From a virus: 64,000 bases of DNA. The notes under the pieces were generated by a model. That model searched no databases. It was not told where the DNA came from and was given only the letters and a program-made list of their open reading frames with translations. The position numbers were made by a program, and so were the translations under genes. The stretch lies in UHGV virus genome UHGV-0039337. One strand, written 5' to 3'. Every line of letters starts with the position of its first letter. Within the stretch, counting starts at the first letter, position 1. Positions 3,754-47,355 of the stretch are shown one piece after another.

Positions 3754-4936
3754 CGAATTTGTTATCGTGAGGCTTTTTATCCTTCACTTCTACGGCTATT
3801 AACCGTAGTCCAGCATATTTTTTCGTGTGATTACTAACTGTGAACACGGTGCGGCCTCGTGGGTTCATTATACTCCTTACTTATAAGGTAAGGGATCAGA
3901 ACCTATGCGTTGCGCCTGGTCGATATTACTATCGTCGCTCACATTACTGCTCGCTAGCTTTTCAGCACCTTCGGTCTCGAGTAGGCTGTCTTTTGACTTT
4001 ACGCCATCCTCGCTTAATTCCGCACTAATACTCTCAGGATTTCTCACAGTCTTATCCTGAGACGGCAATATTCTAAATACTTATTATATTTTCTATCTAA
4101 ATAAACGGTAGCATCTTTATATATATAATCAAATATTTTTTTTAACGAATCAATTTTAAAAATATTTAACGAAGGAACTCTATTTTTATTATTATATATA
4201 TGAATATCATCTTCTTTTAATGTAGAAGTATTTATGATGGCGTTTTTTATATCTTCTAGTACTTGGAAATTATAAGAAACAATTGACCATTTGCAATTTC
4301 CTTTTGTTTTCTTTTTGCCAGATAAACTAAAAGATCCATCTCCATCAAAAACGCCTCTTATAAAATGATGCATAAATTCTTCTGGGATGTTTGGAATTTT
4401 CCATCCATAAGTTTTATTGTGCATTACACCGAGTTCTCTTAATCTATTTGCCATATATGGATCTTGAATAGTAAGTCTATAATATGCATATCCAGATACT
4501 ATCCTAGTGCTGATTTTATGTTCAGCTTCCATATCTGTTTTAAATTTTTCTATGTGTTCCTTATCTTTTATGCATACTTCTAAACTATTCTTTTTTGATA
4601 AATGACCATCAGCAAATATAAAGCCTAACCAATATGCACTTTTTTCATTCCATTCATCAAAGAATTTATTATTAAAATATTTTTTATTATGTTGTGCATG
4701 TTTGGTATTTATTCCTTTTTCGTTAAATTTTTTAGCTAAATAATTTCTATCTCTTTCTAATAATTCAGCTACTTTTGTTAAACTTAATCCATTATTATAT
4801 AATTTGATTGCTATGTTTAATTCTTCTTCAGATATTGATTTTCTAGGCATAGTTAAATTTCTCCTTTATAAAAATATATTTAACTATTTATTACCTAGAC
4901 ATGCCGTTTATTTATTTAAGCATTTAAAAATTATCT
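3754..4936 (-). mobile_element. group I intron (about 1.18 kb) interrupting the UvrD-like helicase within Walker A codons
   Basis: A split P-loop gene. A LAGLIDADG ORF starts about 86 nt into the insert, with its own RBS. A GC-richer structured block of about 290 nt (3754-4043) lies 3' of the ORF. The 5' exon ends in U (GGT) and the intron ends in G. The spliced product reads TATAGAG|KTRVIV, a valid [AG]x4GKT P-loop. Confidence 0.65.
4044..4850 (-). CDS. LAGLIDADG homing endonuclease (intron-encoded)
   Basis: 268 aa with two LAGLIDADG motifs (YWLGFIFADGHL and FIRGVFDGDGSF). Near-paralog of ORF 36563..37357. Confidence 0.85.
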   Translation of the reverse strand: MPRKSISEEELNIAIKLYNNGLSLTKVAELLERDRNYLAKKFNEKGINTKHAQHNKKYFNNKFFDEWNEKSAYWLGFIFADGHLSKKNSLEVCIKDKEHIEKFKTDMEAEHKISTRIVSGYAYYRLTIQDPYMANRLRELGVMHNKTYGWKIPNIPEEFMHHFIRGVFDGDGSFSLSGKKKTKGNCKWSIVSYNFQVLEDIKNAIINTSTLKEDDIHIYNNKNRVPSLNIFKIDSLKKIFDYIYKDATVYLDRKYNKYLEYCRLRIRL

Positions 4937-28752: not shown

Positions 28753-30013
28753 ACCCGATTACACCCTCGGTTTCCCGATATTTATCAGGGGTCTAGACTA
28801 TACCTTCGCCATTTCAGGCGCACTGAACGTAGTCGTTGGACTCCTCCTGTTCGGAGTCGGCTGCTGATTTTCCATTAATTCACCCTTAGCACGTATTTAA
28901 TAATACGCTTTTGTCTCAGCTTAGGTAATCCTCAATACTTTTTTCTGCTTTCGCAACATTCATATAAGTTTGTTTCATCTTATATTGTAGTGATTAAGGC
29001 TTTAGGAATTCCCAGCAAGCGGTCAGTGTAATAATCCTATAGGTTATTATTCCCTATAAGACGACTATATTTATAAATTAATTATATTTTAAATAGAGAT
29101 TTAAATAACGTTCAAATTTGCGTTCCATATATATAGTACAATCTAAATATAACCAACTCATTATTTGATATACTTGATTATCACCACATAATCTTAAACT
29201 TTGAACGTTTCCGTCTCCGTTTTTATGTCTTTTTTGTAATTTTACATTCTCTTTATTTAAAATTGTTTTAAGCGTTTCTAAAAATTCTGTAGTACCTAAT
29301 ATACTAATATCATAAGTATGATATTTTTTATCTCCTGATATTGACAGAGATCCATCTCCATCAAAATATCCTCTAATAAAATGTCTTTGTAATTCTTTTG
29401 GTACTATATCCTCTGAAGGAAATAAACAATGATTGGTTTTATCAAGGCTAAAACCTTTATTAACTAAATCTTGATACATCTTTTTGCTAGTTATAACCAT
29501 TTTTGACTCTCTTGTAATACAATCAAAACTTTTATTGTAATGTTCATAATCTCTTATTGGATACGTAGAGTCTATATCTTTTTTAAATTTTTCTATCATA
29601 TTACGATCTTTTGTGGCTAACGTTAATCCTATTTCATTCCCTCTATTTGTTATATATCCATCAGCCATTAAAAAACCCAACCAATAAGCTTTATGTTCTG
29701 TATCAATAACTTCAAAGTAATTATCATTTACTTTATTTCTTCTTAAATCATCAGGACTTTTCTTTTGATATAGTCCTGCTTTAATTAAAACTGGATAAAT
29801 AGTTTGAGGTTTTCTATCTTTTAACGATTCTTTATTCTCACAAATCCATTTTACGCTATGTCCCTCTTTATATTTATTGCATATCCATTTTTTATCTTCT
29901 TCAGAAAATGATTTTCTTATTCTTTTTGTCAATATATTCACCCCAATATTTAGTTTCTTTATCTAAATATTACGGTGAACGTAGACGCTTATAATAATTA
30001 TTTATAAATCTTA
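28753..30013 (-). mobile_element. group I intron (about 1.26 kb) in gyrB at the Toprim DxDxD|G codons
   Basis: Exon 2 ends DADVD (GAT, U) followed directly by a stop. Exon 3 begins GYHI after tcG. A LAGLIDADG ORF starts about 72 nt into the insert. A 325-nt structured block 28753-29077 lies 3' of it. Confidence 0.65.
29078..29941 (-). CDS. LAGLIDADG homing endonuclease (intron-encoded)
   Basis: 287 aa with YWLGFLMADGYI and FIRGYFDGDGSL. Same family as the UvrD- and clpX-intron HEGs. Confidence 0.85.
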   Translation of the reverse strand: MNILTKRIRKSFSEEDKKWICNKYKEGHSVKWICENKESLKDRKPQTIYPVLIKAGLYQKKSPDDLRRNKVNDNYFEVIDTEHKAYWLGFLMADGYITNRGNEIGLTLATKDRNMIEKFKKDIDSTYPIRDYEHYNKSFDCITRESKMVITSKKMYQDLVNKGFSLDKTNHCLFPSEDIVPKELQRHFIRGYFDGDGSLSISGDKKYHTYDISILGTTEFLETLKTILNKENVKLQKRHKNGDGNVQSLRLCGDNQVYQIMSWLYLDCTIYMERKFERYLNLYLKYN

Positions 30014-35380: not shown

Positions 35381-36250
35381 TTATTCAATTGCTTCTTTTG
35401 CTGTTTCTCTTAATATATCTACTGTTAAATCTTCACGTACTATTACTTTTTTTACTGTAGGATCTCCTGGAACCTCAAATTTGGTTTCAAATAATATATC
35501 TTCCATTACTGTTCTTAATGCTCTAGCACCCATTTTTCTTTCTTTTGCTTTTTGTGCTATTTTAGGCAATGCACCTTCTTCTATGTCAAAATCTATACCA
35601 TCCATTTTAAATTCTTCTTTATATTGTTTTAATAAAGCATGTTTAGGTTGAGTTAGAATCTTAACCATGGCTTCTTCACTTAATTCATGATATACAGCTA
35701 ATAATGGACATCTGCCTATAACTTCTGGTATTATACCAAATTCTACTAAATCATCTGGTATGACTTGAGATATAACATTATTATAATCCATTTCTCCTTT
35801 TGATTCTGGCTTACCATTAAACCCTATGCCTACAGATCCTTTTTTAAGTCTTTTATTTATTATTTCTTCTAGACCTACAAATGCTCCACCTAATATAAAT
35901 AATATATTAGTAGTGTCTATTTTAACGCTTTTAGAATCTAATTTATTTAATTTAACGTCCATTTCGCAGCCTTCAATCATTTTTAGTATAGATTGTTGTA
36001 CTGCTTTACCGTTAACATCTTTGTTATCTCCTCTTGCATCAGATGCTTTAATTTTGTCAAATTCATCTATAAATACTATTCCTTTTTGTGTTTTTTCTAC
36101 GTCTCTACCTGCTGCGATATATAAATCTTTTATCATATCCTCTGTATCACGTCCAACATATCCTGTGCTTGAGAAAGAACTGGCGTCTTGTATAGTAAAT
36201 GGTATATCCATACAAGAACATATAGCTCTTATGGTTTCACTTTTCCCACT
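35381..36250 (-). CDS. clpX: ClpX ATPase, exon 2
   Basis: In-frame extension SGKSETIRAICSCMDIPFTIQDASSFSSTGYVGRDTE...GIVFIDEFDKI aligns with ClpX [37 protein letters not shown]...GIVYIDEIDKI. Confidence 0.8.
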   Translation of the reverse strand, partial: SGKSETIRAICSCMDIPFTIQDASSFSSTGYVGRDTEDMIKDLYIAAGRDVEKTQKGIVFIDEFDKIKASDARGDNKDVNGKAVQQSILKMIEGCEMDVKLNKLDSKSVKIDTTNILFILGGAFVGLEEIINKRLKKGSVGIGFNGKPESKGEMDYNNVISQVIPDDLVEFGIIPEVIGRCPLLAVYHELSEEAMVKILTQPKHALLKQYKEEFKMDGIDFDIEEGALPKIAQKAKERKMGARALRTVMEDILFETKFEVPGDPTVKKVIVREDLTVDILRETAKEAIE

Positions 36251-37441
36251 CGTTCGTTATTAGCGCATAGTTTTTTATCTATGCCTCTGGGCCATTACAG
36301 CCATTTTCATCGGTGTGTTAATTCACACTCAGTCTAGCGTACTTGTTTACGTAATTTACTTGGACAAAACGTAGGACGGCCTCTTGGTGCATTATTTCAG
36401 CACTACGCGTTGCGCCTGACGTGTTGACATATCAACACTCACTATATCACTATAGCTTATCCACTTTTATAGTGGCGCCTTCGGGCTCGAATACACTGTA
36501 TGCAATTTACAATCATACTTTACGTGATCTTCGCTTAATTCCATCCTCATAATCTAGAGTCTTCATTGTCCTTTTGGCTCTAGACGGCAGTAATCTAAGT
36601 ATTTTTTATATTTTCTATCTAAATATATTGTAGCATCTTTATATAACCATTTTAAAAATGCTTCTAACGCTTTAGTACTTGATATATTTAATTCAGGTAT
36701 TTTATAGTCATATTCATAAATTCTAATATGATCTATGGTTTCTTCAACATTATATTTAATAGTTTCTATTAATGATTCTAAAACTGTTCTATCATAGCAT
36801 ATAATTCTAAAAGTAGTACTACCTTTAGTTCTTATGTTTAGGTTTCCATCTCCATCGTATAATCCTCTTATAAAATGATTCATATATTCATTAGGTATAT
36901 CTGGAACAACCCATCCATATGTTTTGTTATGCACTACTCCTAGTTCTTTTAATTTTGTTGCTATAATTTTATCTCTTATATTTATTCTATAATAATCAGT
37001 TCCATTTATTGTTTTTATTCCTACTTTGTGGCTGCTTTCTATATCTGCTTTAAATTTTTCTATGTGTTCTTTATCTTTTATACATATGTCGAGTCCTCCA
37101 TCTTCTGATAAATATCCATCAGCAAATATAAAACCTAACCAATAAGCACTTTTTTCATTCCATTCATTAAAGAAATTACTATTAACTGATTTTTTATTAT
37201 AATGTTGAACTATATTAACACCTGCGGCTTTCATTCTAATAGAAAGCGTACCTCTGTCTCTTTTTAACTGTTTTGCTATTTTAGTAATACTTAAGCCTTC
37301 ATTAAACATATTAGTGGCTTGTTGTATCTCTTCATCTGATATCCTCAAGATAATCACTCCATATTGTGTATTTATCTCTATATTACCGCTACCAGATGAT
37401 CTAATAGAAAATATTGTAAATTTTACTTAGATTATTTGTTT
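36251..37441 (-). mobile_element. group I intron (about 1.19 kb) in clpX inside the Walker A codons (GPTG|SGKS)
   Basis: Exon 1 ends GPTG (GGT, U) then KQII-stop. A LAGLIDADG ORF starts about 84 nt into the insert. The 312-nt structured block 36251-36562 shares the core (ggacggcctcttggtg ... ctacgcgttgcgcctg) with the UvrD and AAA+ introns. Exon 2 begins after acG. Confidence 0.65.
36563..37357 (-). CDS. LAGLIDADG homing endonuclease (intron-encoded)
   Basis: 264 aa with YWLGFIFADGYL and FIRGLYDGDGNL. Over half its residues look identical to ORF 4044..4850 by eye. Confidence 0.85.
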   Translation of the reverse strand: MIILRISDEEIQQATNMFNEGLSITKIAKQLKRDRGTLSIRMKAAGVNIVQHYNKKSVNSNFFNEWNEKSAYWLGFIFADGYLSEDGGLDICIKDKEHIEKFKADIESSHKVGIKTINGTDYYRINIRDKIIATKLKELGVVHNKTYGWVVPDIPNEYMNHFIRGLYDGDGNLNIRTKGSTTFRIICYDRTVLESLIETIKYNVEETIDHIRIYEYDYKIPELNISSTKALEAFLKWLYKDATIYLDRKYKKYLDYCRLEPKGQ

Positions 37442-37843
37442 ACCGGTTGGGCCTAAGAATATAATATTTGATTTATCTATTCTTAATTTATTAGATGCAC
37501 TAGGATCTTCTTCTAATCTTTTTATTCTTTTAGTATGAGAATATAGTTCTGTTGCTATAGTTACTTTAGGTCTTTCTTGTTCTATAACCCAATCATCAAG
37601 ATATTTCTTTATATCTCTTGGAGTATTTATTTCAGTTTTTGCTTGTTCACTATCTTTTTCTAATAAAACTTTTTGTCTTTCTTCAAATTTTTCATATCCT
37701 AATTTTAAACAATTAGAACATATTCTTATCTTTTTGCCATCTACATTTGCTTTAGATTTGTATAAAACAATACCTTTTTCACTTAATTCTTCTTCAGTAT
37801 ATTCTTTACCACAGAAATTACATTTTTTAGTATTCTCAGCCAT
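37442..37843 (-). CDS. clpX: ClpX ATPase, exon 1 (zinc-binding N-domain to Walker A start)
   Basis: CNFCGK...CSNC zinc finger. RDIKKYLDDWVIEQERPKVTIATELYSHTKRIKRL...KSNIIFLGPTG aligns with ClpX PKEI...LD.YVIGQE.AKK.L.VAVYNHYKRL...KSNILLIGPTG. Confidence 0.8.
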
Positions 37844-40237: not shown

Positions 40238-41494
40238 TTATTGTAAATCTGCAAATATTTTAGACATTTCACTTCTTACATCTACAGGTAGATACATAAC
40301 TCCGACTAATGGCTCGTTTTTTGATTGATCTATAAAAGCACTAAGTCCATTGTCTATTTTATATCTTTTTTCTGTTTGATTTTTTATATCGCCCATCATA
40401 ACAAACATAGAACCTTTACCTATTCTAGTACCTGCTACTTTTATAAGTTTTAACGATAAGTCTTCGGCTTCATCAAGTATAACTATAGTTCTATCTACTG
40501 ATACACCTTTTAAGTTTTGTACTATATCCATATCTAATTGATATCCTCTTCTTTTAGCTGCATCTTCATTTGTTGGATCAAATGCTTCTTTTACATCATA
40601 CATTGAATCATTAGTTAAGTATTGAGTCATAGGAGTGAAAAAGTGACCTAATTTTGCATAAAAGTCTCCAGGTAAATATCCTATCTCTGTTTCATCAACA
40701 GCTATTGGATTTCTTAGTAATAGCATTTTATCATATAATCCTGAATAAATTCTTTCTTCCATCATGTTTACGGCAAGTCGGCTTTTACCAGCACCATACG
40801 TACCTGCTATTACTTTTATAGGTACTTTATCATTATATAATAAATCCATAGCACAAGCTTGATATATGTTTAGTGGTTTTACTCTGGCGCTTTTATAATG
40901 TATGTCTACAAATTCTTCTGTATTTGCGTCCCAACGAACTGCTGATTCAGTATTAGTATCTGTATCATGTATTATTATATATTCATTAGCATATGGTCTT
41001 TTAGTTTCTAGCATGGCATACAATGCTTCATCATTTTCTTCTTCTGTACCATATAGTTCTATATAGCCTTTGTAGTCTTCTTCTTCATCTTCATCTTTAA
41101 TAGATATGGTAGGTATTTCTAATAGTTTAGCTTTTGCTTTCATACCATTATCATATGTTAATAGTTTTATGTCTACATTTTTTAAAGTGTTTTTCATGGA
41201 TACTAAACATGCTAATATTTTATTATCAGGTATTTTCATATTAAAATTATCTGGTAATGTTGCATTTTCTTGTATCGCTATTAAAATTCTATCTTCTTCT
41301 TCTAACTTATTTAATAATTTAAAAGCTTGACGTGCTTTATAATTTTTTTCTCCGTCTCCGAAATCTTTATGATTGTCAAGTTCATCAAGTACTACAGAAC
41401 ATACTAAAGCTGTTGCATTTTCTCTTTCTAATAATTTATCTACTCCCTCTGGGCTTTGCATAAGCGCTGAAGTATCACAGAATACATATTTCAT
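40238..41494 (-). CDS. phoH: PhoH-like ATPase with N-terminal PIN domain (YlaK-like)
   Basis: N-terminal FCDTSALM ... SVVLDELD (PIN acidic residues). Walker A VIAGTYGAGKSRLA. PhoH C-terminal DEAEDLS / MMGDIKNQ. Confidence 0.7.
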   Translation of the reverse strand: MKYVFCDTSALMQSPEGVDKLLERENATALVCSVVLDELDNHKDFGDGEKNYKARQAFKLLNKLEEEDRILIAIQENATLPDNFNMKIPDNKILACLVSMKNTLKNVDIKLLTYDNGMKAKAKLLEIPTISIKDEDEEEDYKGYIELYGTEEENDEALYAMLETKRPYANEYIIIHDTDTNTESAVRWDANTEEFVDIHYKSARVKPLNIYQACAMDLLYNDKVPIKVIAGTYGAGKSRLAVNMMEERIYSGLYDKMLLLRNPIAVDETEIGYLPGDFYAKLGHFFTPMTQYLTNDSMYDVKEAFDPTNEDAAKRRGYQLDMDIVQNLKGVSVDRTIVILDEAEDLSLKLIKVAGTRIGKGSMFVMMGDIKNQTEKRYKIDNGLSAFIDQSKNEPLVGVMYLPVDVRSEMSKIFADLQ

Positions 41495-41544
41495 ATATAT
41501 CTCCCACTTTCTCTATATTTGTAGTTCTGTACAGATATTACTTA

Positions 41545-42021
41545 TTATAAGACTTCATATTTAGTTTTAACTTGTAATTGTTTTAGCATGTATACTTTTG
41601 GAGTTACAACTAAATGTAATTTTGCTATATGTTCATTTAATTCTGCTTTAGTACCAACGAATACATCAAAATCTTTTTCAGAATAATCTCCTATTACTAT
41701 TAAATATTCTCCAAAGTCTTTTGCTTCTAAATGATGCTTAATATCATCTGCTACTTCTATAGGTTCTGATTCATTTAAATCGTGATCATAATCAGGTGCT
41801 GCTTTAAATGTATATTCTTCTTTAGTTGTTTTAACTTTTTCTTCTGGTACATATATATCATTTTTTATATATGCTTTAGAAGCATCTTCTAGTATTTCTT
41901 GTGGTCCAAATTTTATTTGCATACATTCTCCTGTTGCTTTATTAACTACTGCTATATCTCCTTCTTTTGAAAAAACATATCCTGCAGTTTCATCTAATGT
42001 ACTGTTAAATATTTTAGGCAT
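41545..42021 (-). CDS. hypothetical protein
   Basis: 158-aa ORF. Confidence 0.35.
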   Translation of the reverse strand: MPKIFNSTLDETAGYVFSKEGDIAVVNKATGECMQIKFGPQEILEDASKAYIKNDIYVPEEKVKTTKEEYTFKAAPDYDHDLNESEPIEVADDIKHHLEAKDFGEYLIVIGDYSEKDFDVFVGTKAELNEHIAKLHLVVTPKVYMLKQLQVKTKYEVL

Positions 42022-42024
42022 TGA

Positions 42025-42489
42025 TTAATCCTCCTTCAAATTTTTAATATATTTATAAATCCACGTACATGTGAATTCATTAGCTTGATCAAAATATAAT
42101 TCATACTCATTCTGATATTTCTTTATTACAGAGAACTTAGCCATCTTTCTTATACATATTAAAGGATCTATTGTACAATAATCTTGAGTTTCTCCACTTC
42201 CTCCTAATCTAATAGAAGTACAGCCAAAATGTTTTATAATTTCATCAACTATTAGGGAAGCTTCAAAGATATTATTATAATATATTTTTTCTTCTTTTAG
42301 ATCCAATCTCATATCTGATAATTCTAGGTCTATATCTAATATTTCTATTAAGTATTTTTCAATTGCGTTTTTCATTTCTTCATTAGACATTGTGATTTTA
42401 TACATAATATTATTTGATATATTATCCAATGCTACTATAAGACTAGAATCTGTATAATCTATGTTATCTAATTCAACTTTAAAATTCAT
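42025..42489 (-). CDS. hypothetical protein
   Basis: 154-aa ORF. Confidence 0.35.
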   Translation of the reverse strand: MNFKVELDNIDYTDSSLIVALDNISNNIMYKITMSNEEMKNAIEKYLIEILDIDLELSDMRLDLKEEKIYYNNIFEASLIVDEIIKHFGCTSIRLGGSGETQDYCTIDPLICIRKMAKFSVIKKYQNEYELYFDQANEFTCTWIYKYIKNLKED

Positions 42490-42509
42490 ATTAATTCCTT
42501 TCTATAAAC

Positions 42510-42545
42510 AAAAAATACCCAGAGTATAGGGGATTCTACTCTGGG
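42510..42545 (-). terminator. rho-independent terminator
   Basis: 9-bp hairpin cccagagta/tactctggg followed by TATTTTTTGTTT on the minus strand. Downstream of ORF 42634..43182. Confidence 0.55.
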
Positions 42546-42633
42546 CTTGTAAATAATTTTTACTATCGGGAGCGATAATAACAAATTGTAAATTATTTAT
42601 TTGAATATAATATATTACAATCAGCTTAATCAA

Positions 42634-43182
42634 TTACATATTATTGAATATTTTTTTATTTAAATCTTCTTCGGCTTTCTTAATTAATCTATTGTGTAAT
42701 CTGTTGTATATAGCACGACCATAATCCATTTCTTCTTTGTTGTATTTAAATACTTTAACTTCGAATAATTTAGTTTGATACCAGTTTATTTTAGTAAATA
42801 CTTCTTTGTATAATTGTACAAATATTCTCCATTGCTCAATTTCTTTAGTTGCCAAGATATTACCACTTTGAGTTTTGCCATTTTCTACCCAGAATTTATA
42901 CTTTCCAGTATTTATTTTACTATACAAAGAAGGATTAATATATATCTTTATTTGATTATAATCCTTCTTGTTTTCAATTATTTTAGATAAGTATCTATTA
43001 AGAATGTACAAAGCATTAGTGTCTTTGGCATATAATTCTGAATTAGTACATGGAAGTTTTTTACTAGTAAATCTTTCTAATGTACAATTAGCATAATTTT
43101 TAGCATCTTCTTTGCTATAACATGCAGTAAATATATTTCTTACATCACCATCAATTATAATGTTTTCAAATTTTTTATTCAT
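42634..43182 (-). CDS. hypothetical protein
   Basis: 182-aa ORF. Confidence 0.35.
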   Translation of the reverse strand: MNKKFENIIIDGDVRNIFTACYSKEDAKNYANCTLERFTSKKLPCTNSELYAKDTNALYILNRYLSKIIENKKDYNQIKIYINPSLYSKINTGKYKFWVENGKTQSGNILATKEIEQWRIFVQLYKEVFTKINWYQTKLFEVKVFKYNKEEMDYGRAIYNRLHNRLIKKAEEDLNKKIFNNM

Positions 43183-43204
43183 AAAATCCTCTCCTTTTAT
43201 TTAA

Positions 43205-43441
43205 TTAATATAATAAGTTTTCAGGCCATAGCCATTCTTTATTGTCTACATTTAATAAATATCTTTTAGTATCATTTCCTGCAAATCTTGCTATTACTAT
43301 ACTATACATACCTGCGTATTCTAACATTTCAGGAGTAATGTCTTCTCCATTATCTTTAAATTCTTGTAGATTTTCTACTATTTTTACTCTATCACCTATA
43401 TAATACATAAATATTTTAACACCTCCATATTTATTTTTCAT
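43205..43441 (-). CDS. hypothetical protein downstream of hicA-like gene
   Basis: 78 aa, overlaps the HicA-like ORF by 11 nt. No HicB (RNase H-like/RHH) features recognised. Confidence 0.3.
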   Translation of the reverse strand: MKNKYGGVKIFMYYIGDRVKIVENLQEFKDNGEDITPEMLEYAGMYSIVIARFAGNDTKRYLLNVDNKEWLWPENLLY

Positions 43442-43682
43442 ATAGAAACTGGGCCAGTTTTTCTCTACTAGACCCAGTTTGCTTTAATATTTTACTTACA
43501 GTACCTTGACATAGAGTACCTTTTTTATTCGGAACCGGCACGGATATACCTTTGTTATTTTTAAATATGATATGTGTACTATTAGAATGTCTAGTTTCTA
43601 CATATCCTATATGATTAAGGAATTTTCGTATATCTTTATATTTAATCCTTATCCTATTGTTTGTTTTAATGTTGTCACTCAC
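43431..43682 (-). CDS. HicA-like (YcfA family) small RNA-binding/toxin-domain protein
   Basis: 83 aa. IRKFLNHIGYVETRHSNSTHIIFKNNKGISVPVPNKKGTLCQGTVSKILKQTG fits the HicA pattern (L...G....R..GSH.....+.....+P.H.+..+..G.+..IL+Q.G). Confidence 0.55.
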   Translation of the reverse strand: MSDNIKTNNRIRIKYKDIRKFLNHIGYVETRHSNSTHIIFKNNKGISVPVPNKKGTLCQGTVSKILKQTGSSREKLAQFLYEK

Positions 43683-43694
43683 GATTATACAAAT

Positions 43695-43940
43695 CTATTT
43701 AACTGATTTTGCTATGCTCCCTTCATTTGCTTTATCTTCTAATTCTTTATGATATTTTCTCTTTTTAATTCTTGTTCCGTTTACTACTCTACATACTATT
43801 TCTTCTTCATGTTTATTTATATTTTCTTTGTGTCTTTCTGCTCTTTTTATAATGTCATTGCCTTTTCTTATTTGTTGTTTAGTTGGTTTTTGATTTTGTG
43901 TTCCTAAAGTTATTTTAGTTAATAGTTCTGAAAAATACAT
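43695..43940 (-). CDS. hypothetical basic protein
   Basis: 81 aa, Lys/Arg-rich. Confidence 0.3.
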   Translation of the reverse strand: MYFSELLTKITLGTQNQKPTKQQIRKGNDIIKRAERHKENINKHEEEIVCRVVNGTRIKKRKYHKELEDKANEGSIAKSVK

Positions 43941-43979
43941 ACATACATCATCCCTTCATTATTATAAAATATTTTTATT

Positions 43980-44063
43980 TGGAGCCAATAGTAGGAATTG
44001 AACCTGCATCTGTAAAGATAAAATAAATTATTTTTACCGTTCTTACAATTGAACTATATCGGC
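43980..44063 (-). tRNA. tRNA-like gene with encoded CCA and atypically expanded anticodon arm (identity undetermined)
   Basis: The minus strand reads GCCGATA-TA-GTTC-AATTGTAA-GAAC-G-[GTAAA-16nt-TTTAC]-AGAT-GCAGG-TTCAATT-CCTAC-TATTGGC-T-CCA. The acceptor, D-arm and T-arm (GTTCAATTC T-loop) are good. The anticodon region is 26 nt instead of 17. Confidence 0.5.
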
Positions 44064-44070
44064 AAAAAAA

Positions 44071-44128
44071 GACCACTTACTTTTGCTGTCCATAAAAGGT
44101 CAGGTTTTGTAAGTGGTTAAAATTTAGG
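44071..44128 (-). terminator. rho-independent terminator immediately upstream of the tRNA
   Basis: Long imperfect hairpin (accacttac ... gtaagtggt) followed by TCTTTTTTTG on the minus strand. Confidence 0.45.
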
Positions 44129-44185
44129 GGGTCTATTATGAAAAATACATTTATATAAACTCAGTTTACCAGACTGAGGATATAC

Positions 44186-44234
44186 CAAAAAAGTTAGCTG
44201 ATGGAAAACTAGAGGTGATCTAAAACCATCAGCT
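44186..44234 (-). terminator. hairpin plus T-run (putative terminator)
   Basis: agctgatgg/ccatcagct 9-bp stem with a 21-nt loop, followed on the minus strand by AACTTTTTT. Confidence 0.35.
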
Positions 44235-44257
44235 TTAAAAAAAGGGGGTTGTATTAT

Positions 44258-44301
44258 GCCGTCCTTGTGGAATCGAACCACGGCATGTACCTGTAGGACG
44301 G
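44258..44301 (-). ncRNA. tRNA-like minihelix / truncated tRNA remnant (acceptor stem plus T-arm only)
   Basis: The minus strand reads CCGTCCT-ACAGGTACATG-CGTGG-TTCGATT-CCACA-AGGACGG-C. It has a canonical T-loop and a 7-bp acceptor pairing but no D or anticodon arm and no CCA. A 7-bp hairpin (gtcccag/ctgggac, 44310-44336) lies adjacent. Confidence 0.35.
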
Positions 44302-44396
44302 ATATTAAGGTCCCAGGTTTCTAAAGTTTCTGGGACATTAATTAATAAACTATTTTTAACTAAAAGAATTACTGCTCTAGATTAATAAATTAGTAA

Positions 44397-44816
44397 TTAT
44401 TTTTGTTCTTCAACAGGTTCTTTTTCAGGGTCTTCACCTGGATCGAAATTAACACCCATTAAAGGATATTCATCAGCTTGAGTTTCTCCAGTGTCTACTT
44501 TGATATTAGTTCTATTTAATTTTTCTGGAACTTTAGCTTCAGGATGTTCAGGAAGTTCTTTTTTAGGTTTATCGTAACGTTTAGCTTCTCCACCTTCCAT
44601 GCAAACATGAACATCGTATGGTCTTTCCATTTCTTGTGCTTTATCAGCTTCAGCTTTAGCTGGAAAATCTACATTTTTGTCTCCTTGCAACGTACCTCTT
44701 CTTAAATATAATTGTTCTTCATGTTGTGGTATTACTTTAGCTATAACTTCTTTATCATCTACCATATGAGTTATAACTAATCTACCTTTTTCGTCTCTTT
44801 TCATTGCCATTAGCAT
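44397..44816 (-). CDS. hypothetical protein (locally elevated GC, charged C-terminal tail)
   Basis: 139 aa. Codon composition is visibly GC-richer than neighbours. No confident family assignment. Confidence 0.4.
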   Translation of the reverse strand: MLMAMKRDEKGRLVITHMVDDKEVIAKVIPQHEEQLYLRRGTLQGDKNVDFPAKAEADKAQEMERPYDVHVCMEGGEAKRYDKPKKELPEHPEAKVPEKLNRTNIKVDTGETQADEYPLMGVNFDPGEDPEKEPVEEQK

Positions 44817-44830
44817 ATCCTCCTTAAAAA

Positions 44831-45373
44831 TTAACTTTCTCTTTTATCAGTTCCTTTTTTGATTCCATATTGTCTACGCATAGACATTTCATAATCAAAT
44901 TTTAATAAAGCCGCTGGATCTTTGCTTGCTATTTTAGCACGCGATAAATTATAATTCCATAAATCTTCTTCTTCTTGTTGTTCATATTCAAATTCATCTA
45001 GGAATTTTCTTGCTCTAAAATCATTTATTTTATTAGCATAATTATTTATTTCTCTTATCTTTCTTGAAGTAAGATCTTCTGCAGCTACAGCTTTTTCAAA
45101 CACGTCTTCTATTGATTTAAATTTATTTAGTTTGGAAAGATCCTCTATTCCTGTAATGTTACAAGTCCCTCCGTTTTCATCTATATAATTATAAAATCTC
45201 TCAAAGTGTGTTTTTTCTTCTGCAGCATGCAATTTGAAATAAGAACTCATTCCTTCTAGATCCATAGAATCAAAATATGCGGCACCTGCTAAATAAAAAG
45301 TTTCATTAAATCTTTCATGATTCATATGATTATTTAGCATTTGTTCTAGTTTTTTATCTATCAATATCTCCAC
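44831..45373 (-). CDS. ferritin-like protein (non-heme ferritin family)
   Basis: LNNHMNHERFNETFYLAGAAYFDSMDLEGMSSYFKLHAAEEKTHFERFYNYIDENGG matches the ferritin ferroxidase-centre pattern (LN.Q.N.E..S...Y ... A.EE..H ... GG). Confidence 0.65.
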   Translation of the reverse strand: MEILIDKKLEQMLNNHMNHERFNETFYLAGAAYFDSMDLEGMSSYFKLHAAEEKTHFERFYNYIDENGGTCNITGIEDLSKLNKFKSIEDVFEKAVAAEDLTSRKIREINNYANKINDFRARKFLDEFEYEQQEEEDLWNYNLSRAKIASKDPAALLKFDYEMSMRRQYGIKKGTDKRES

Positions 45374-45426
45374 CTCATATAAAATTGATCTAATATTATA
45401 TTACGTATTAACAGTATATTATTACT

Positions 45427-45726
45427 TTAAATACCGCCATTATCTATAAAAGTATTAATTTTCTTTTCTAATGCTTTATGGTCATCGTAAGATATATACT
45501 TTGTGGTTTCTTCATTTTGAGTATTAGGAAATATGACAGGATAATATCCTTTTGATTTTGAATTATATGAAGTTATAGAATCTATAAACTGATTTATTAT
45601 CACTCTCAAAGATTCATGACACTCTTTACATATTTGTTTAGTAGTATATTGATTACTACTATTAGGATAGCTAAAATTGTATCTTTTATTGCAATCGACA
45701 CCACATATTTCACAAGTCACAGCCAT
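45427..45726 (-). CDS. small zinc-finger protein
   Basis: 99 aa with CEICGVDC ... CKEC. Confidence 0.3.
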   Translation of the reverse strand: MAVTCEICGVDCNKRYNFSYPNSSNQYTTKQICKECHESLRVIINQFIDSITSYNSKSKGYYPVIFPNTQNEETTKYISYDDHKALEKKINTFIDNGGI

Positions 45727-45730
45727 TTAA

Positions 45731-46360
45731 TCACCTCACGTTAATATAATCTTTATTAGCTAAATTACTAGCATCATATAATATTTTATATAGTTTACTT
45801 TTCTTTGATTTTATGCAATTAAGAATATTTGTCCAATACATATTATATATATATTTGGTTTCTATATCTAAATTGTCATAATTATCTTTAAATAATTCAT
45901 CTAAAAGATTTGTGTCTATATTACGTATTATTGATGCTACTATTAATATATCATGTTCATTTTCTGTTAGTTCACGTGATTGAGATAATGCATGTGCTAT
46001 TTTTGTTGTAGCTATAAGATGTGTATTTTTTTCATTTAATATTTCTGATGTTTCTGATATTATATAACGAACAAATGTCTTAAATGATTTTTCTTTTAAT
46101 AGTTTTATTTCATTTTCAAAGTCATAATTATTATTTTCAGTATAATTTTTGTTTACTCCTGGTTCATATATAACTTCTGATTCGTCAAACATATCAATAA
46201 GTCTGTTAAGATACTTATACGGTATGGTCCATATTTTACCTTCATTTTTGTGATATTTTCTACCAGGAATTTTCTTTATTTTTCCAATAGTAAGTTCATC
46301 ATATTCTGCTTTTACTTTTAAGGTTTTTGGTTCCTTTTCGTATAAGGCTATTCTTATCAT
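45731..46360 (-). CDS. hypothetical protein
   Basis: 209-aa ORF. Confidence 0.35.
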   Translation of the reverse strand: MIRIALYEKEPKTLKVKAEYDELTIGKIKKIPGRKYHKNEGKIWTIPYKYLNRLIDMFDESEVIYEPGVNKNYTENNNYDFENEIKLLKEKSFKTFVRYIISETSEILNEKNTHLIATTKIAHALSQSRELTENEHDILIVASIIRNIDTNLLDELFKDNYDNLDIETKYIYNMYWTNILNCIKSKKSKLYKILYDASNLANKDYINVR

Positions 46361-46371
46361 TAATTCACCTC

Positions 46372-46845
46372 CTATTTTATATTAATTTCTAATTCTTTAA
46401 AATTCATTACGTATTTATAATTGACTTTTAAATATTGTATTTGATTATTCCAATTATCTGCTGGTACTCTTTCTATTTCAAATGTTTTTAGATCTACTAA
46501 AAAACATTCTTTATCTTCATCAATAGCCTTTTTTTCATAATTTGCTACTGTTATTACTCCATAATAGTTATGAGTAAGATTATTTTTGACTATCATTCCG
46601 ACTATAAATTTATTTATGTCTGTTGTTGTTTTTTCTTTGGTATTTTGTTTTACTGCTTCTAATATTGGTAAGTCTAATATGTTTAATTTTAAATCTTTAT
46701 ATTCATCATTTATTGTAGTTTCAAATTCATTTTTTCTGTTAAGAGAATTAATGTTTAAAAATAAGAATTTCTCCCTATATTTTATAGTTATATAGGGAGT
46801 TTCATATAGGCTTCCATAAAATTTTACTATTTGTCCATGTTCCAT
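46372..46845 (-). CDS. hypothetical protein
   Basis: 157-aa ORF. Confidence 0.35.
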   Translation of the reverse strand: MEHGQIVKFYGSLYETPYITIKYREKFLFLNINSLNRKNEFETTINDEYKDLKLNILDLPILEAVKQNTKEKTTTDINKFIVGMIVKNNLTHNYYGVITVANYEKKAIDEDKECFLVDLKTFEIERVPADNWNNQIQYLKVNYKYVMNFKELEINIK

Positions 46846-46980
46846 AATAATTGTCCGTCATTTAACACATTAGATACTACACCAAAAGAAAAGCCCGCAA
46901 TAGCTGAATCTATTACAGGCCCAAAAATCATATTCATACATAAATTTAATAATAAACTTAGCATATATATATTCACTCCT

Positions 46981-47355
46981 TTATTCTTCTATAGCTGTTA
47001 CTTTAAATGTACCTCTTAATGTTTGTATAACAGCTTTACCTTTACCTTTTTTTATTCTACTATATAATGTATCTCTATTAACTCCTATAGCTTTAGCTGC
47101 ATCTGCTCTACTACTATATACATAAGGAGTTCTATTATAATTAGCACCAGTAATATTTTGTACTTGAGTTTTCTTACGTGGATAAGGTATATATTCATGT
47201 TCATATACTTTTTCTTCTACTTCTGTTTTTGTGGTATTTTTTAATATATTATCTGGTATTTCATATATTACTTTTATTTTATTATTATCGATTATTTCTA
47301 TACTGTAAATATATTTACTTATATCAATATTATCTATTATTTTTTCTACTTTCAT
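46981..47355 (-). CDS. DNA-binding protein with C-terminal HTH (NUMOD1/IENR1-like)
   Basis: C-terminus YSSRADAAKAIGVNRDTLYSRIKKGKG resembles the HTH modules appended to homing endonucleases and regulators. Confidence 0.35.
   Translation of the reverse strand: MKVEKIIDNIDISKYIYSIEIIDNNKIKVIYEIPDNILKNTTKTEVEEKVYEHEYIPYPRKKTQVQNITGANYNRTPYVYSSRADAAKAIGVNRDTLYSRIKKGKGKAVIQTLRGTFKVTAIEE

What the first reader, a model, noticed from the sequence alone, without database searches (positions are those of the whole stretch)
43980..44063. tRNA gene with canonical acceptor, D and T arms but a 26-nt anticodon arm
A GTAAA/TTTAC stem encloses a 16-nt loop that can be folded further (ATAA/TTAT plus a 6-nt loop), leaving no standard 7-nt anticodon loop with U33 and R37. 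It could be a pseudo-tRNA, a tRNA carrying a tiny insertion, or a non-canonical decoder or regulatory tRNA-like RNA. CCA is encoded and a terminator T-tract abuts the 5' end, suggesting it is processed from a read-through transcript.
Basis: seen in the sequence. Interest (0 to 1): 0.55.

Follow-up and report, generated by a model that had tools for sequence, protein, structure and literature searches.

The report
Phage threonine tRNA with broken anticodon
This is a real tRNA-shaped gene in an uncultured giant phage, descended from the threonine tRNA that related phages carry at the same spot, but its anticodon loop has swollen into 16 A/U-rich bases, so it almost certainly no longer reads codons.

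Summary
On the minus strand, 44063->43980 is a cloverleaf: Rfam tRNA 47.7 bits (cut-off 29). It has 7/4/5/5-bp stems, an encoded CCA and a 16-nt loop where 7 nt are expected. Default ARAGORN rejects it.

The window is part of a ~270-kb uncultured jumbo phage. At the same syntenic site, four related phage lineages carry a normal tRNA-Thr(GGU). The closest homologue (68% core identity) has the loop AUGGUAA. The window copy has AAUAAUUUAUUUUAUC: no G, no GGU, and no U33/R37 frame. It reads as tandem repeats (AAT AAT, TTTAT TTTAT), which suggests slippage.

It is therefore an anticodon-disabled derivative of a phage tRNA-Thr, not a decoder. TAA is the main stop codon, which argues against the 'tRNA-Stop(UUA) with intron' call that ARAGORN makes in intron mode.

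Twenty of 21 stem pairs are intact. Three G-C to A-U switches are fully compensated (crude P about 0.01), so the fold was under selection for much of its history. I cannot tell whether the RNA is now a neutral relic (my best guess, about 55%) or a retained tRNA mimic (about 30%).

Also found: a second aberrant long-arm copy in another lineage, a conserved anticodon-less mini tRNA-like RNA 200 nt upstream with strong covariation, and a nested tRNA-within-tRNA in the closest relative.

The parts
43980..44063 (-). tRNA-like gene, 84 nt including the encoded CCA. It derives from phage tRNA-Thr(GGU). Acceptor 44057-44063 / 43984-43990; D arm 44039-44054; T arm 43991-44007; discriminator U 43983; CCA 43980-43982.
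   Evidence: Rfam RF00005 47.7 bits. Cloverleaf MFE. 20 of 21 stem pairs are standard. Syntenic tRNA-Thr(GGU) in relatives.
44012..44037 (-). 26-nt anticodon arm. The stem is GUAAA/UUUAC (44033-44037 / 44012-44016). The 16-nt loop AAUAAUUUAUUUUAUC (44017-44032) can fold further into an A.C mismatch, a 4-bp AUAA/UUAU helix and a hexaloop.
   Evidence: The loop has no G and reads as AAT-AAT and TTTAT-TTTAT repeats. Homologues have AUGGUAA or CUGGUAY.
44064..44117 (-). Leader: a long hairpin (ACCACUUAC...GUAAGUGGU, 44072-44117) followed by U7 (44064-44070) that runs straight into tRNA base 1.
   Evidence: Sequence. The same hairpin and U-run sit upstream of the tRNA in L073, L074 and L080, and further upstream in L076 and L121.
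43961..43988 (-). Sigma-70-like promoter match (TTGGCT-16-TATAAT) that overlaps the tRNA 3' end and faces the downstream 81-aa gene.
   Evidence: 10 of 12 matches. This is a consensus match only. The -35 part is not conserved in relatives.
44259..44301 (-). Conserved mini tRNA-like RNA of the same intergenic cluster. It has a 6-bp acceptor-like stem, a 10-12-nt linker containing GG, and a 6-bp T-like arm with loop UUCGAUU. It has no anticodon arm. The conserved tail CAUAAUAnnACCCCC extends to 44245.
   Evidence: Five sequences: 93% of cells paired, 9 of 12 pairs with changes on both sides, 0 of 500 shuffles reach this. Model R1 finds exactly one copy per locus in the window and cluster-1 relatives, at 65-74 bits.
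43695..43940 (-). Downstream 81-aa gene, followed by a HicA-like gene at 43431-43682. These served as the synteny anchors.

Best explanation
The element is an anticodon-disabled descendant of the tRNA-Thr(GGU) gene that this family of ~270-kb phages keeps between a 137-aa gene and an 81/77-aa gene.

Shown: it has the tRNA fold and an encoded CCA. It sits at the orthologous site. Its closest homologues have a normal 7-nt loop with anticodon GGU. Its own loop is 16 nt of A/U plus one C.

Inferred: the loop grew by replication slippage of short A/T repeats. The RNA is probably still transcribed with the neighbouring small RNAs and trimmed at base 1 by RNase P. Without G35-U36 it is not a substrate for threonyl-tRNA synthetase, and without a 7-nt loop with U33 it cannot pair with a codon on the ribosome. 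It therefore no longer works in translation.

My split for its present status is about 55% neutral relic on its way to loss, about 30% kept for its tRNA shape (see the first rival), and the rest other readings. The confidence given here is for the core claim: a tRNA-Thr derivative that does not decode.
For: - Rfam tRNA hit well above threshold, and a cloverleaf MFE.
- Normal tRNA-Thr(GGU) at the same site in L073/L074/L075, L076/L077, L080 and L121, at 53-67 bits. These share the flanks: leader hairpin plus U-run upstream, and ...GCUCCAAAUA...AAUGAAGGGAUGAUG downstream.
- Core identity over 57 structural positions: 68% to the L121 inner tRNA, 63% to L080.
- G1-C72, C2-G71 and U73 match the relatives.
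- The loop lacks any G and has a tandem-repeat look.
- Signs of decay: G+C is 32% against 47-54% in the working homologues; there is a C50.A64 mismatch; the D loop has only one G instead of G18G19.
- The gene is dispensable in the family. Three lineages (L006-L008) have no tRNA at the site. L009 carries a more eroded long-arm copy with two acceptor mismatches, a 5-nt D loop and no CCA, at 40 bits.
- No tRNA ligase, kinase or splicing enzyme was found among 40 window proteins scanned.
Against: - The stems are better kept than a long-dead gene would be. 20 of 21 pairs are standard. Three G-C to A-U switches derived in this lineage are compensated on both strands; random placement gives P of about 0.01 in a crude test. 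The 15-48 tertiary pair covaries (A15-U48 here, G15-C48 in L080).
- Phage genomes usually delete dead DNA.
- Two lineages hold arms of nearly the same abnormal length (26 and 27 nt), and both fold into extended hairpins.
- The same phages keep a clearly selected anticodon-less tRNA mimic nearby, so non-decoding tRNA shapes are in use in this family.
- ACU, a codon read by GGU, is the commonest Thr codon in the window, so loss of the decoder is not obviously free of cost.
- All six available copies of this phage are at least 99.3% identical. There is no population evidence either way.
Confidence: 0.8

Rival explanations
1. Retained tRNA mimic. The decoding function is gone, but the tRNA shape is kept by selection. 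It could act as a handle for RNase P or RNase Z that defines RNA ends in this small-RNA/mRNA cluster. Or it could be a decoy that soaks up a host tRNA-targeting defence nuclease or another tRNA-binding factor.
For: Compensated stem changes and an intact tertiary-core pattern. A second long-arm copy in L009, with 26- and 27-nt arms that both fold as extended hairpins. A co-located mini tRNA-like RNA lacking an anticodon arm shows strong covariation. Phage tRNAs are known players against anticodon nucleases (PMC10264068, PMC11464382, PMC11555353).
Against: The compensated changes cannot be dated relative to the loop expansion, so they may all predate it. The two long arms share no sequence, and the nearest relative of the window copy has a normal loop, so the two expansions look independent. 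The L009 copy has acceptor mismatches and no CCA, which reads as decay. The published anti-defence cases involve tRNAs that still decode. No partner protein was identified.
Confidence: 0.3
2. A tRNA with a short intervening sequence that is removed after transcription to restore a 7-nt loop. ARAGORN's intron mode gives this reading: tRNA(UUA), an ochre suppressor, after removal of AAUAAUUUA. It would be comparable with the unexplained 'introns' reported in tRNAs of Lak megaphages.
For: The ARAGORN -i call. Large-phage tRNAs with unexplained insertions are on record (bioRxiv 10.1101/356790). The closest relative, L121, has a tRNA interrupted by about 270 nt. Other viral contigs show tRNAs with long anticodon-region inserts.
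Against: The predicted cut site, 31/32, is not a known splice position. The arm has a 1x1 internal loop, not the bulge-helix-bulge motif. Nine nt is far too short for a group I intron, and Rfam finds none. The restored loop UUUUAUC would have U37, not a purine. TAA ends 51 of 72 genes and the standard code gives 78% coding density, so an ochre suppressor would be harmful. No RNA ligase or splicing enzyme was found in the window. No register restores GGU.
Confidence: 0.05
3. A chance cloverleaf in A/T-rich intergenic DNA, or a protein-coding or antisense feature rather than an RNA gene.
For: The fold z-score is only -2.2. A 33-codon ORF overlaps it.
Against: Rfam E = 4e-7 over the whole window. 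Orthologous tRNA genes sit at the identical site in several lineages. T-loop UUCAAUU, U8, A14 and the encoded CCA are present. The overlapping ORF has no support.
Confidence: 0.02

Closest known systems
Phage-encoded tRNA-Thr(GGU), as found in the relatives L073/L074/L076/L080/L121
   Same: Same genomic site and flanks. Same cloverleaf, G1-C72, C2-G71, U73 and encoded CCA. 63-68% core identity to the type found in L080 and L121.
   Different: No GGU anticodon. A 16-nt loop instead of a 7-nt loop. 32% G+C instead of about 50%. One T-stem mismatch.
tRNA pseudogenes and 'undetermined' tRNAs routinely flagged in phage and bacterial genomes
   Same: A high-scoring tRNA body with a non-functional anticodon loop. 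Rejected by a standard tRNA finder.
   Different: The stems are unusually well preserved, with compensated changes. A second lineage has a similar long arm.
Lak megaphage tRNAs with 'enigmatic introns', one of which contains a tRNA (Devoto et al., bioRxiv 10.1101/356790)
   Same: A large uncultured gut phage with tRNA genes carrying unexplained extra sequence in the anticodon region. The L121 relative has a Thr-type tRNA interrupted by an insert that holds another tRNA-Thr.
   Different: The insert here is only 9 nt, A/U-only, and no excision restores a sensible anticodon. The phage family is unrelated to Lak as far as was tested. No splicing has been shown in either case.
Phage tRNAs with anticodon-loop substitutions that evade host anticodon nucleases (PMC10264068; T5 tRNA-Lys against PARIS, PMC11464382)
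   Same: A phage tRNA whose anticodon loop departs from the host-like consensus.
   Different: Those tRNAs keep a 7-nt loop and still decode. This one cannot.
Archaeal and eukaryal tRNA introns (bulge-helix-bulge) and bacterial group I introns in tRNA
   Same: Extra nucleotides inside the anticodon arm.
   Different: No BHB geometry, the wrong position, and no group I core.

Membership tests
tRNA (Rfam RF00005) | Covariance-model score at or above the gathering threshold | tested here: met
   47.7 bits against 29, model positions 1-71.
tRNA (Rfam RF00005) | Four-arm cloverleaf with 7/4/5/5-bp stems | tested here: met
   20 of 21 pairs are standard; only C50.A64 fails.
tRNA (functional decoder) | 7-nt anticodon loop with U33 and purine 37 | tested here: not met
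   The loop is 16 nt, AAUAAUUUAUUUUAUC. Default ARAGORN finds no tRNA. The only 7-mer with U33 and A37 (AUUUUAU) is not closed by the stem.
tRNA (functional decoder) | Elbow contacts G18/G19 with the T-loop U55/C56 | tested here: inconclusive
   The T loop UUCAAUU is canonical. The D loop AAUUGUAA has one G only. The working homologue in L121 also lacks GG.
tRNA-Thr(GGU) of this phage family | Orthologous position and shared flanks | tested here: met
   It lies between the 137-aa and 81/77-aa genes, with the same leader hairpin and the same downstream sequence.
tRNA-Thr(GGU) of this phage family | Anticodon GGU. G35 and U36 are the main ThrRS identity elements in bacteria (established knowledge). 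| tested here: not met
   There is no G anywhere in the loop.
tRNA-Thr(GGU) of this phage family | Acceptor identity pairs G1-C72 and C2-G71, and the family's U73 | tested here: met
Suppressor tRNA (UUA) | A usable anticodon loop, and a genome that tolerates or needs read-through of TAA | tested here: not met
   It needs an unnatural 31/32 excision and would have U37. TAA is the stop for 51 of 72 ORFs, and the standard code gives dense ORFs.
Intron-containing tRNA (BHB type) | Two 3-nt bulges separated by a 4-bp helix at the splice sites | tested here: not met
   The arm folds as 5 bp, a 1x1 A.C internal loop, 4 bp and a hexaloop.
Intron-containing tRNA (group I) | Group I catalytic core inside the anticodon loop | tested here: not met
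   The insert is 9 nt. No Rfam intron hit.
Any functional RNA | A stable, processed transcript | not testable with these tools
   No expression data are available.

The most novel reading that the evidence does not exclude
The long-armed copies in the window and in L009 are not dead genes. They would be members of a set of phage tRNA mimics, together with the conserved anticodon-less mini tRNA-like RNA 200 nt upstream. These mimics would be kept for their acceptor/T/D 'top half' and used either as decoys for host tRNA-targeting immune nucleases or as RNase P/Z handles that shape the phage's small-RNA and mRNA ends. A still bolder variant, about 5%, is that short inserts in large-phage tRNAs are removed by an unknown splicing route.
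Probability: 0.2. Interest if true: 0.65.

Novelty: new member of a known kind. Interest (0 to 1): 0.33.

Why it matters
As a disabled tRNA gene it matters mainly for annotation. It should not be counted as a decoder or a suppressor, and the intron-mode call 'tRNA-Stop(UUA)' is misleading.

The locus is more interesting than the single gene. In one family of uncultured ~270-kb phages the same site holds, in different lineages:
- a working tRNA-Thr(GGU);
- two different long-armed non-decoders;
- a tRNA nested inside another tRNA;
- nothing at all.

Next to this site lies a well-conserved tRNA mimic without an anticodon arm. That makes the locus a compact natural series for asking why large phages carry tRNAs, how they lose them, and whether tRNA-shaped RNAs have non-translational uses in infection.

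Tried and rejected
- **Cultured-phage DNA.** Similarity to INPHARED phages for 41000-47000: none. The best protein match for PhoH is 36% identical, to Brevibacillus and Clostridium phages. There is no cultured relative and the host is unknown.
- **IMG/VR.** The family is absent. The exact tRNA 3' half, two flanking proteins, a PhoH alignment and a conserved leader motif all found nothing.
- **Degenerate T-arm pattern in IMG/VR**. It returned 63 loci, mostly ordinary tRNAs of unrelated phages. None is a homologue of the long arm.
- **JGI metagenomes and GTDB genomes.** The anchor pattern GAAGGGATGATGNNNNNATGTAT gave 40 loci, all chance matches.
- **Exact-protein look-ups.** The ferritin-like and 139-aa proteins failed, probably because the start codons were called differently.
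- **Antisense target of the 16-nt loop within the window.** Three matches against 1.8 expected, which is not significant.
- **Population test of constraint.** The available copies are 99.3-100% identical, so the test has no power.
- **tmRNA reading of the region.** ARAGORN -m finds nothing.
- **ORF reading of the mini tRNA-like on the opposite strand.** The start codon is not conserved in L073, while the RNA pairs covary.
- **Alternative ARAGORN fold.** At a lowered threshold it gives a UAAAA/UUUUA stem, an 8-nt loop and an 11-nt variable arm. I rejected it because it breaks homology with the relatives' anticodon stems.

Full report
**What is at the coordinates**

Read on the minus strand, 44063->43980 is GCCGAUA UA GUUC AAUUGUAA GAAC G GUAAA AAUAAUUUAUUUUAUC UUUAC AGAU GCAGG UUCAAUU CCUAC UAUUGGC U CCA.

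- Rfam's tRNA model matches 43983-44063(-) end to end at 47.7 bits (gathering score 29; E = 4e-7 for the whole window). It places 16 nt where the 7-nt loop belongs.
- It is the only Rfam hit at gathering level in the 64 kb.
- ARAGORN with default settings finds no tRNA in the window.
- The minimum-energy fold is the cloverleaf with the anticodon stem extended by an A.C mismatch, a 4-bp AUAA/UUAU helix and a hexaloop (-15.7 kcal/mol, z = -2.2).
- CCA is encoded.
- A long hairpin (44072-44117) followed by seven U (44064-44070) runs straight into base 1.

The strand is minus, the same as nearly all genes of the window.

**Genomic setting**

The window is 24-31% G+C, with genes almost all on the minus strand. 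It encodes topoisomerase II subunits, ribonucleotide reductase, a UvsX-like recombinase, DNA ligase, helicases, PhoH, ClpP/ClpX, ThyX and an amidase.

The PhoH protein occurs with an identical sequence on at least 23 metagenomic contigs of up to 278 kb. The window is 100% identical to ENA ERZ27287489 k141_249877, and other copies are 99.3-99.9% identical. It is an uncultured jumbo phage. There is no DNA match to any deposited phage, and the best PhoH match to a cultured phage is 36%. The family is absent from IMG/VR.

**Comparative evidence**

I anchored on PhoH and on the 81-aa gene just downstream of the element, and fetched syntenic loci from relatives. Four kinds of occupant appear at the same site.

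- *No tRNA.* One clade (L006-L008) has small ORFs and no tRNA there.
- *Normal tRNA-Thr(GGU).* L073/L074/L075, L076/L077 and L080 have a normal tRNA-Thr(GGU) at 55-67 bits, with a 7-nt loop, U73 and CCA. It lies between the 137/138-aa gene and the 77-aa gene, with the same leader hairpin and the same downstream sequence as the window.
- *Nested tRNA.* L121 is the closest relative I could reach (81-aa protein 80% identical). It has a normal tRNA-Thr(GGU) (53 bits, loop AUGGUAA) that is 68% identical to the window element over 57 structural positions.
- *Another aberrant long arm.* L009 has at the same site a different aberrant tRNA-like at 40 bits. Its anticodon stem is UCAAU/AUUGA, enclosing 17 nt that extend to an 8-bp stem with an 11-nt loop. 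It has two acceptor mismatches, a 5-nt D loop and no CCA.

The window element is thus the orthologue of a phage tRNA-Thr(GGU) in which the loop AUGGUAA has become AAUAAUUUAUUUUAUC. That loop has no G at all, so neither GGU nor the G35-U36 identity bases of ThrRS are present. The role of G35-U36 is established knowledge, not tested here. The loop reads as short tandem repeats (AAT AAT; TTTAT TTTAT), which suggests slippage. That is an inference.

**Can it decode?**

- No register of the loop closed by the stem gives U33-NNN-R37.
- In intron mode ARAGORN calls 'tRNA-Stop(UUA)' by deleting AAUAAUUUA between positions 31 and 32. That is not a known splice position, and the resulting loop would have U37.
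- The arm has no bulge-helix-bulge geometry.
- Nine nucleotides cannot be a group I intron, and Rfam reports none.
- TAA ends 51 of 72 long minus-strand ORFs, and the standard code gives 78% coding density. An ochre suppressor is therefore implausible.
- Among 40 proteins scanned from the window I found no RNA ligase, kinase-phosphatase or splicing endonuclease. The rest of the ~270-kb genome was not available.

I conclude with about 0.8 confidence that the RNA does not act in decoding.

**Relic or retained mimic?**

Evidence for decay:
- G+C is 32% against 47-54% in the working homologues.
- There is a C50.A64 mismatch.
- The D loop has a single G.
- Whole lineages lack the gene, so it is dispensable.
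- L009 looks like a later stage of erosion.

Evidence for constraint:
- 20 of 21 stem pairs are standard.
- With L121 and L080 as outgroups, three G-C pairs (6-67, 28-42, 30-40) have become A-U or U-A by changes on both strands in the window lineage, against one uncompensated change.
- If seven G/C to A/T hits fell at random on the 13 G-C pairs, at least three fully double-hit pairs would occur with P of about 0.01. This is a crude model.
- The 15-48 pair covaries (A15-U48 here, G15-C48 in L080).

These changes cannot be dated relative to the loop expansion, so they may reflect selection while the gene still decoded. The available copies of this phage are too similar for a population test. My estimate is about 55% neutral relic, about 30% retained tRNA-shaped RNA, about 5% spliced or decoding, and the rest unresolved.

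**Context that keeps the mimic reading alive**

The 450-nt intergenic region is a conserved cluster of structured RNAs on the gene strand. About 200 nt upstream of the element, at 44259-44301(-), lies a mini tRNA-like RNA. It has a 6-bp acceptor-like stem, a 10-12-nt linker with GG, and a 6-bp T-like arm with loop UUCGAUU. It has no anticodon arm and ends in a conserved tail, CAUAAUAnnACCCCC.

Across five lineages 93% of cells pair, 9 of 12 pairs show changes on both sides, and no shuffle or slid register approaches this. A covariance model finds exactly one copy per locus in the window and its cluster-1 relatives, and none elsewhere in 228 kb searched. Rfam has no family for it. So this phage family does maintain at least one non-decoding tRNA mimic next to the tRNA site.

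**Comparison with what is known**

- The element is a member of the tRNA fold family, but it fails the decoder criteria.
- It is a homologue, but not a functional member, of the family's tRNA-Thr(GGU).
- It resembles the pseudo-tRNAs that tRNA finders flag.
- Published phage anti-defence tRNAs keep a 7-nt loop and still decode (PMC10264068, PMC11464382, PMC11555353), so it does not fit that model directly.
- The closest published oddity is the 'enigmatic introns' of Lak megaphage tRNAs, one of which contains a tRNA (bioRxiv 10.1101/356790). The L121 arrangement parallels this. There, an outer Thr-type tRNA has its anticodon arm replaced by about 270 nt that carry a 32-codon ORF and the inner tRNA-Thr.

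**Verdict**

- The element is real, tRNA-derived and almost certainly non-decoding.
- It is a new member of a known kind: a disabled phage tRNA.
- Interest in the single gene is modest. The locus as a whole deserves a note: variable tRNA occupancy, long-armed copies, a nested tRNA and a conserved mini tRNA mimic.

Noticed in passing
window 44245-44301 (-); L073 2144-2200, L074 2040-2095, L076 1999-2057, L080 2000-2058: A conserved mini tRNA-like RNA: a 6-bp acceptor-like stem, a GG-containing linker, and a T-like arm with loop UUCGAUU. It has no anticodon arm and ends in the tail CAUAAUAnnACCCCC. Nine of 12 pairs show compensatory changes across five lineages. There is one copy per locus and no Rfam family. 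Its function is unknown.
   Followed up: partly
L121 205-533: In the closest relative, an outer Thr-type tRNA has its anticodon arm replaced by about 270 nt. Its 5' half is GCTGGTATAGCTC... and its 3' half is ...AGGTTATGGGTTCAAGTCCCATTACCAGCTCCA. The insert holds a 32-codon Cys-rich ORF (316-414) and a complete inner tRNA-Thr(GGU) (416-491). This recalls the tRNA-in-intron case reported for Lak megaphages. Rfam finds no group I intron there.
   Followed up: partly
L009 5257-5335 and 5380-5665: A second aberrant tRNA-like at the syntenic site: 8-bp anticodon stem, 11-nt loop UUCCCCCUUUU, two acceptor mismatches, no CCA. It is followed by a terminator-like hairpin and about 250 nt of unusually G+C-rich, apparently structured sequence with no Rfam match.
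   Followed up: partly
window 44119-44159 and 44244-44258 (-); also in L073, L074, L076, L080, L121, L009: The motif CAUAAUA(n)ACCCCCUAA occurs twice in the intergenic region. It is associated with UUUAUAUAAAU, which resembles a T4-type late promoter, and with hairpin plus U-run modules (44160-44178, 44196-44234). The pattern suggests several short transcription units, that is, a small-RNA cluster. On the opposite strand the motif reads as AGGGGG-N7-ATG, but that ATG is not conserved.
   Followed up: partly
window 35381-37843 (-); also 4044-4850 and 29078-29941: The ClpX-like gene is split into a 138-aa part and a 276-aa part by a LAGLIDADG endonuclease ORF (36563-37357). It is intact (422-433 aa) in L003, L006, L007, L073, L078 and L079/L080. 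Two more LAGLIDADG ORFs lie next to the helicase and between the topoisomerase II genes. These are probably mobile introns or inteins. Rfam gave no group I hit at gathering level.
   Followed up: no
window 43431-43682 (-): A HicA toxin-like gene (Pfam E = 5e-11) is conserved across the whole phage family, two genes downstream of the tRNA site. No partner with a recognisable antitoxin domain was identified. The overlapping 78-aa ORF (43205-43441) is a candidate.
   Followed up: no
window 40238-41494 (-): The PhoH/PIN protein of this phage is 67% identical to one clade of relatives and 62% to another, yet those two clades are only 47% identical to each other. This suggests a mosaic or recombinant gene.
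   Followed up: no
L019 about 2840-2950; L012/L016/L035/L043/L047/L059/L072; L039; L064; L057: Unrelated IMG/VR phage contigs picked up by a T-arm pattern carry tRNA-like genes with abnormal anticodon regions. L019 has a 38-nt loop. The L012 group has a 12-nt loop. L039 and L064 have long inserts. L057, on a 272-kb contig, has a truncated arm. Abnormal anticodon arms may be common in phage tRNA genes.
   Followed up: no
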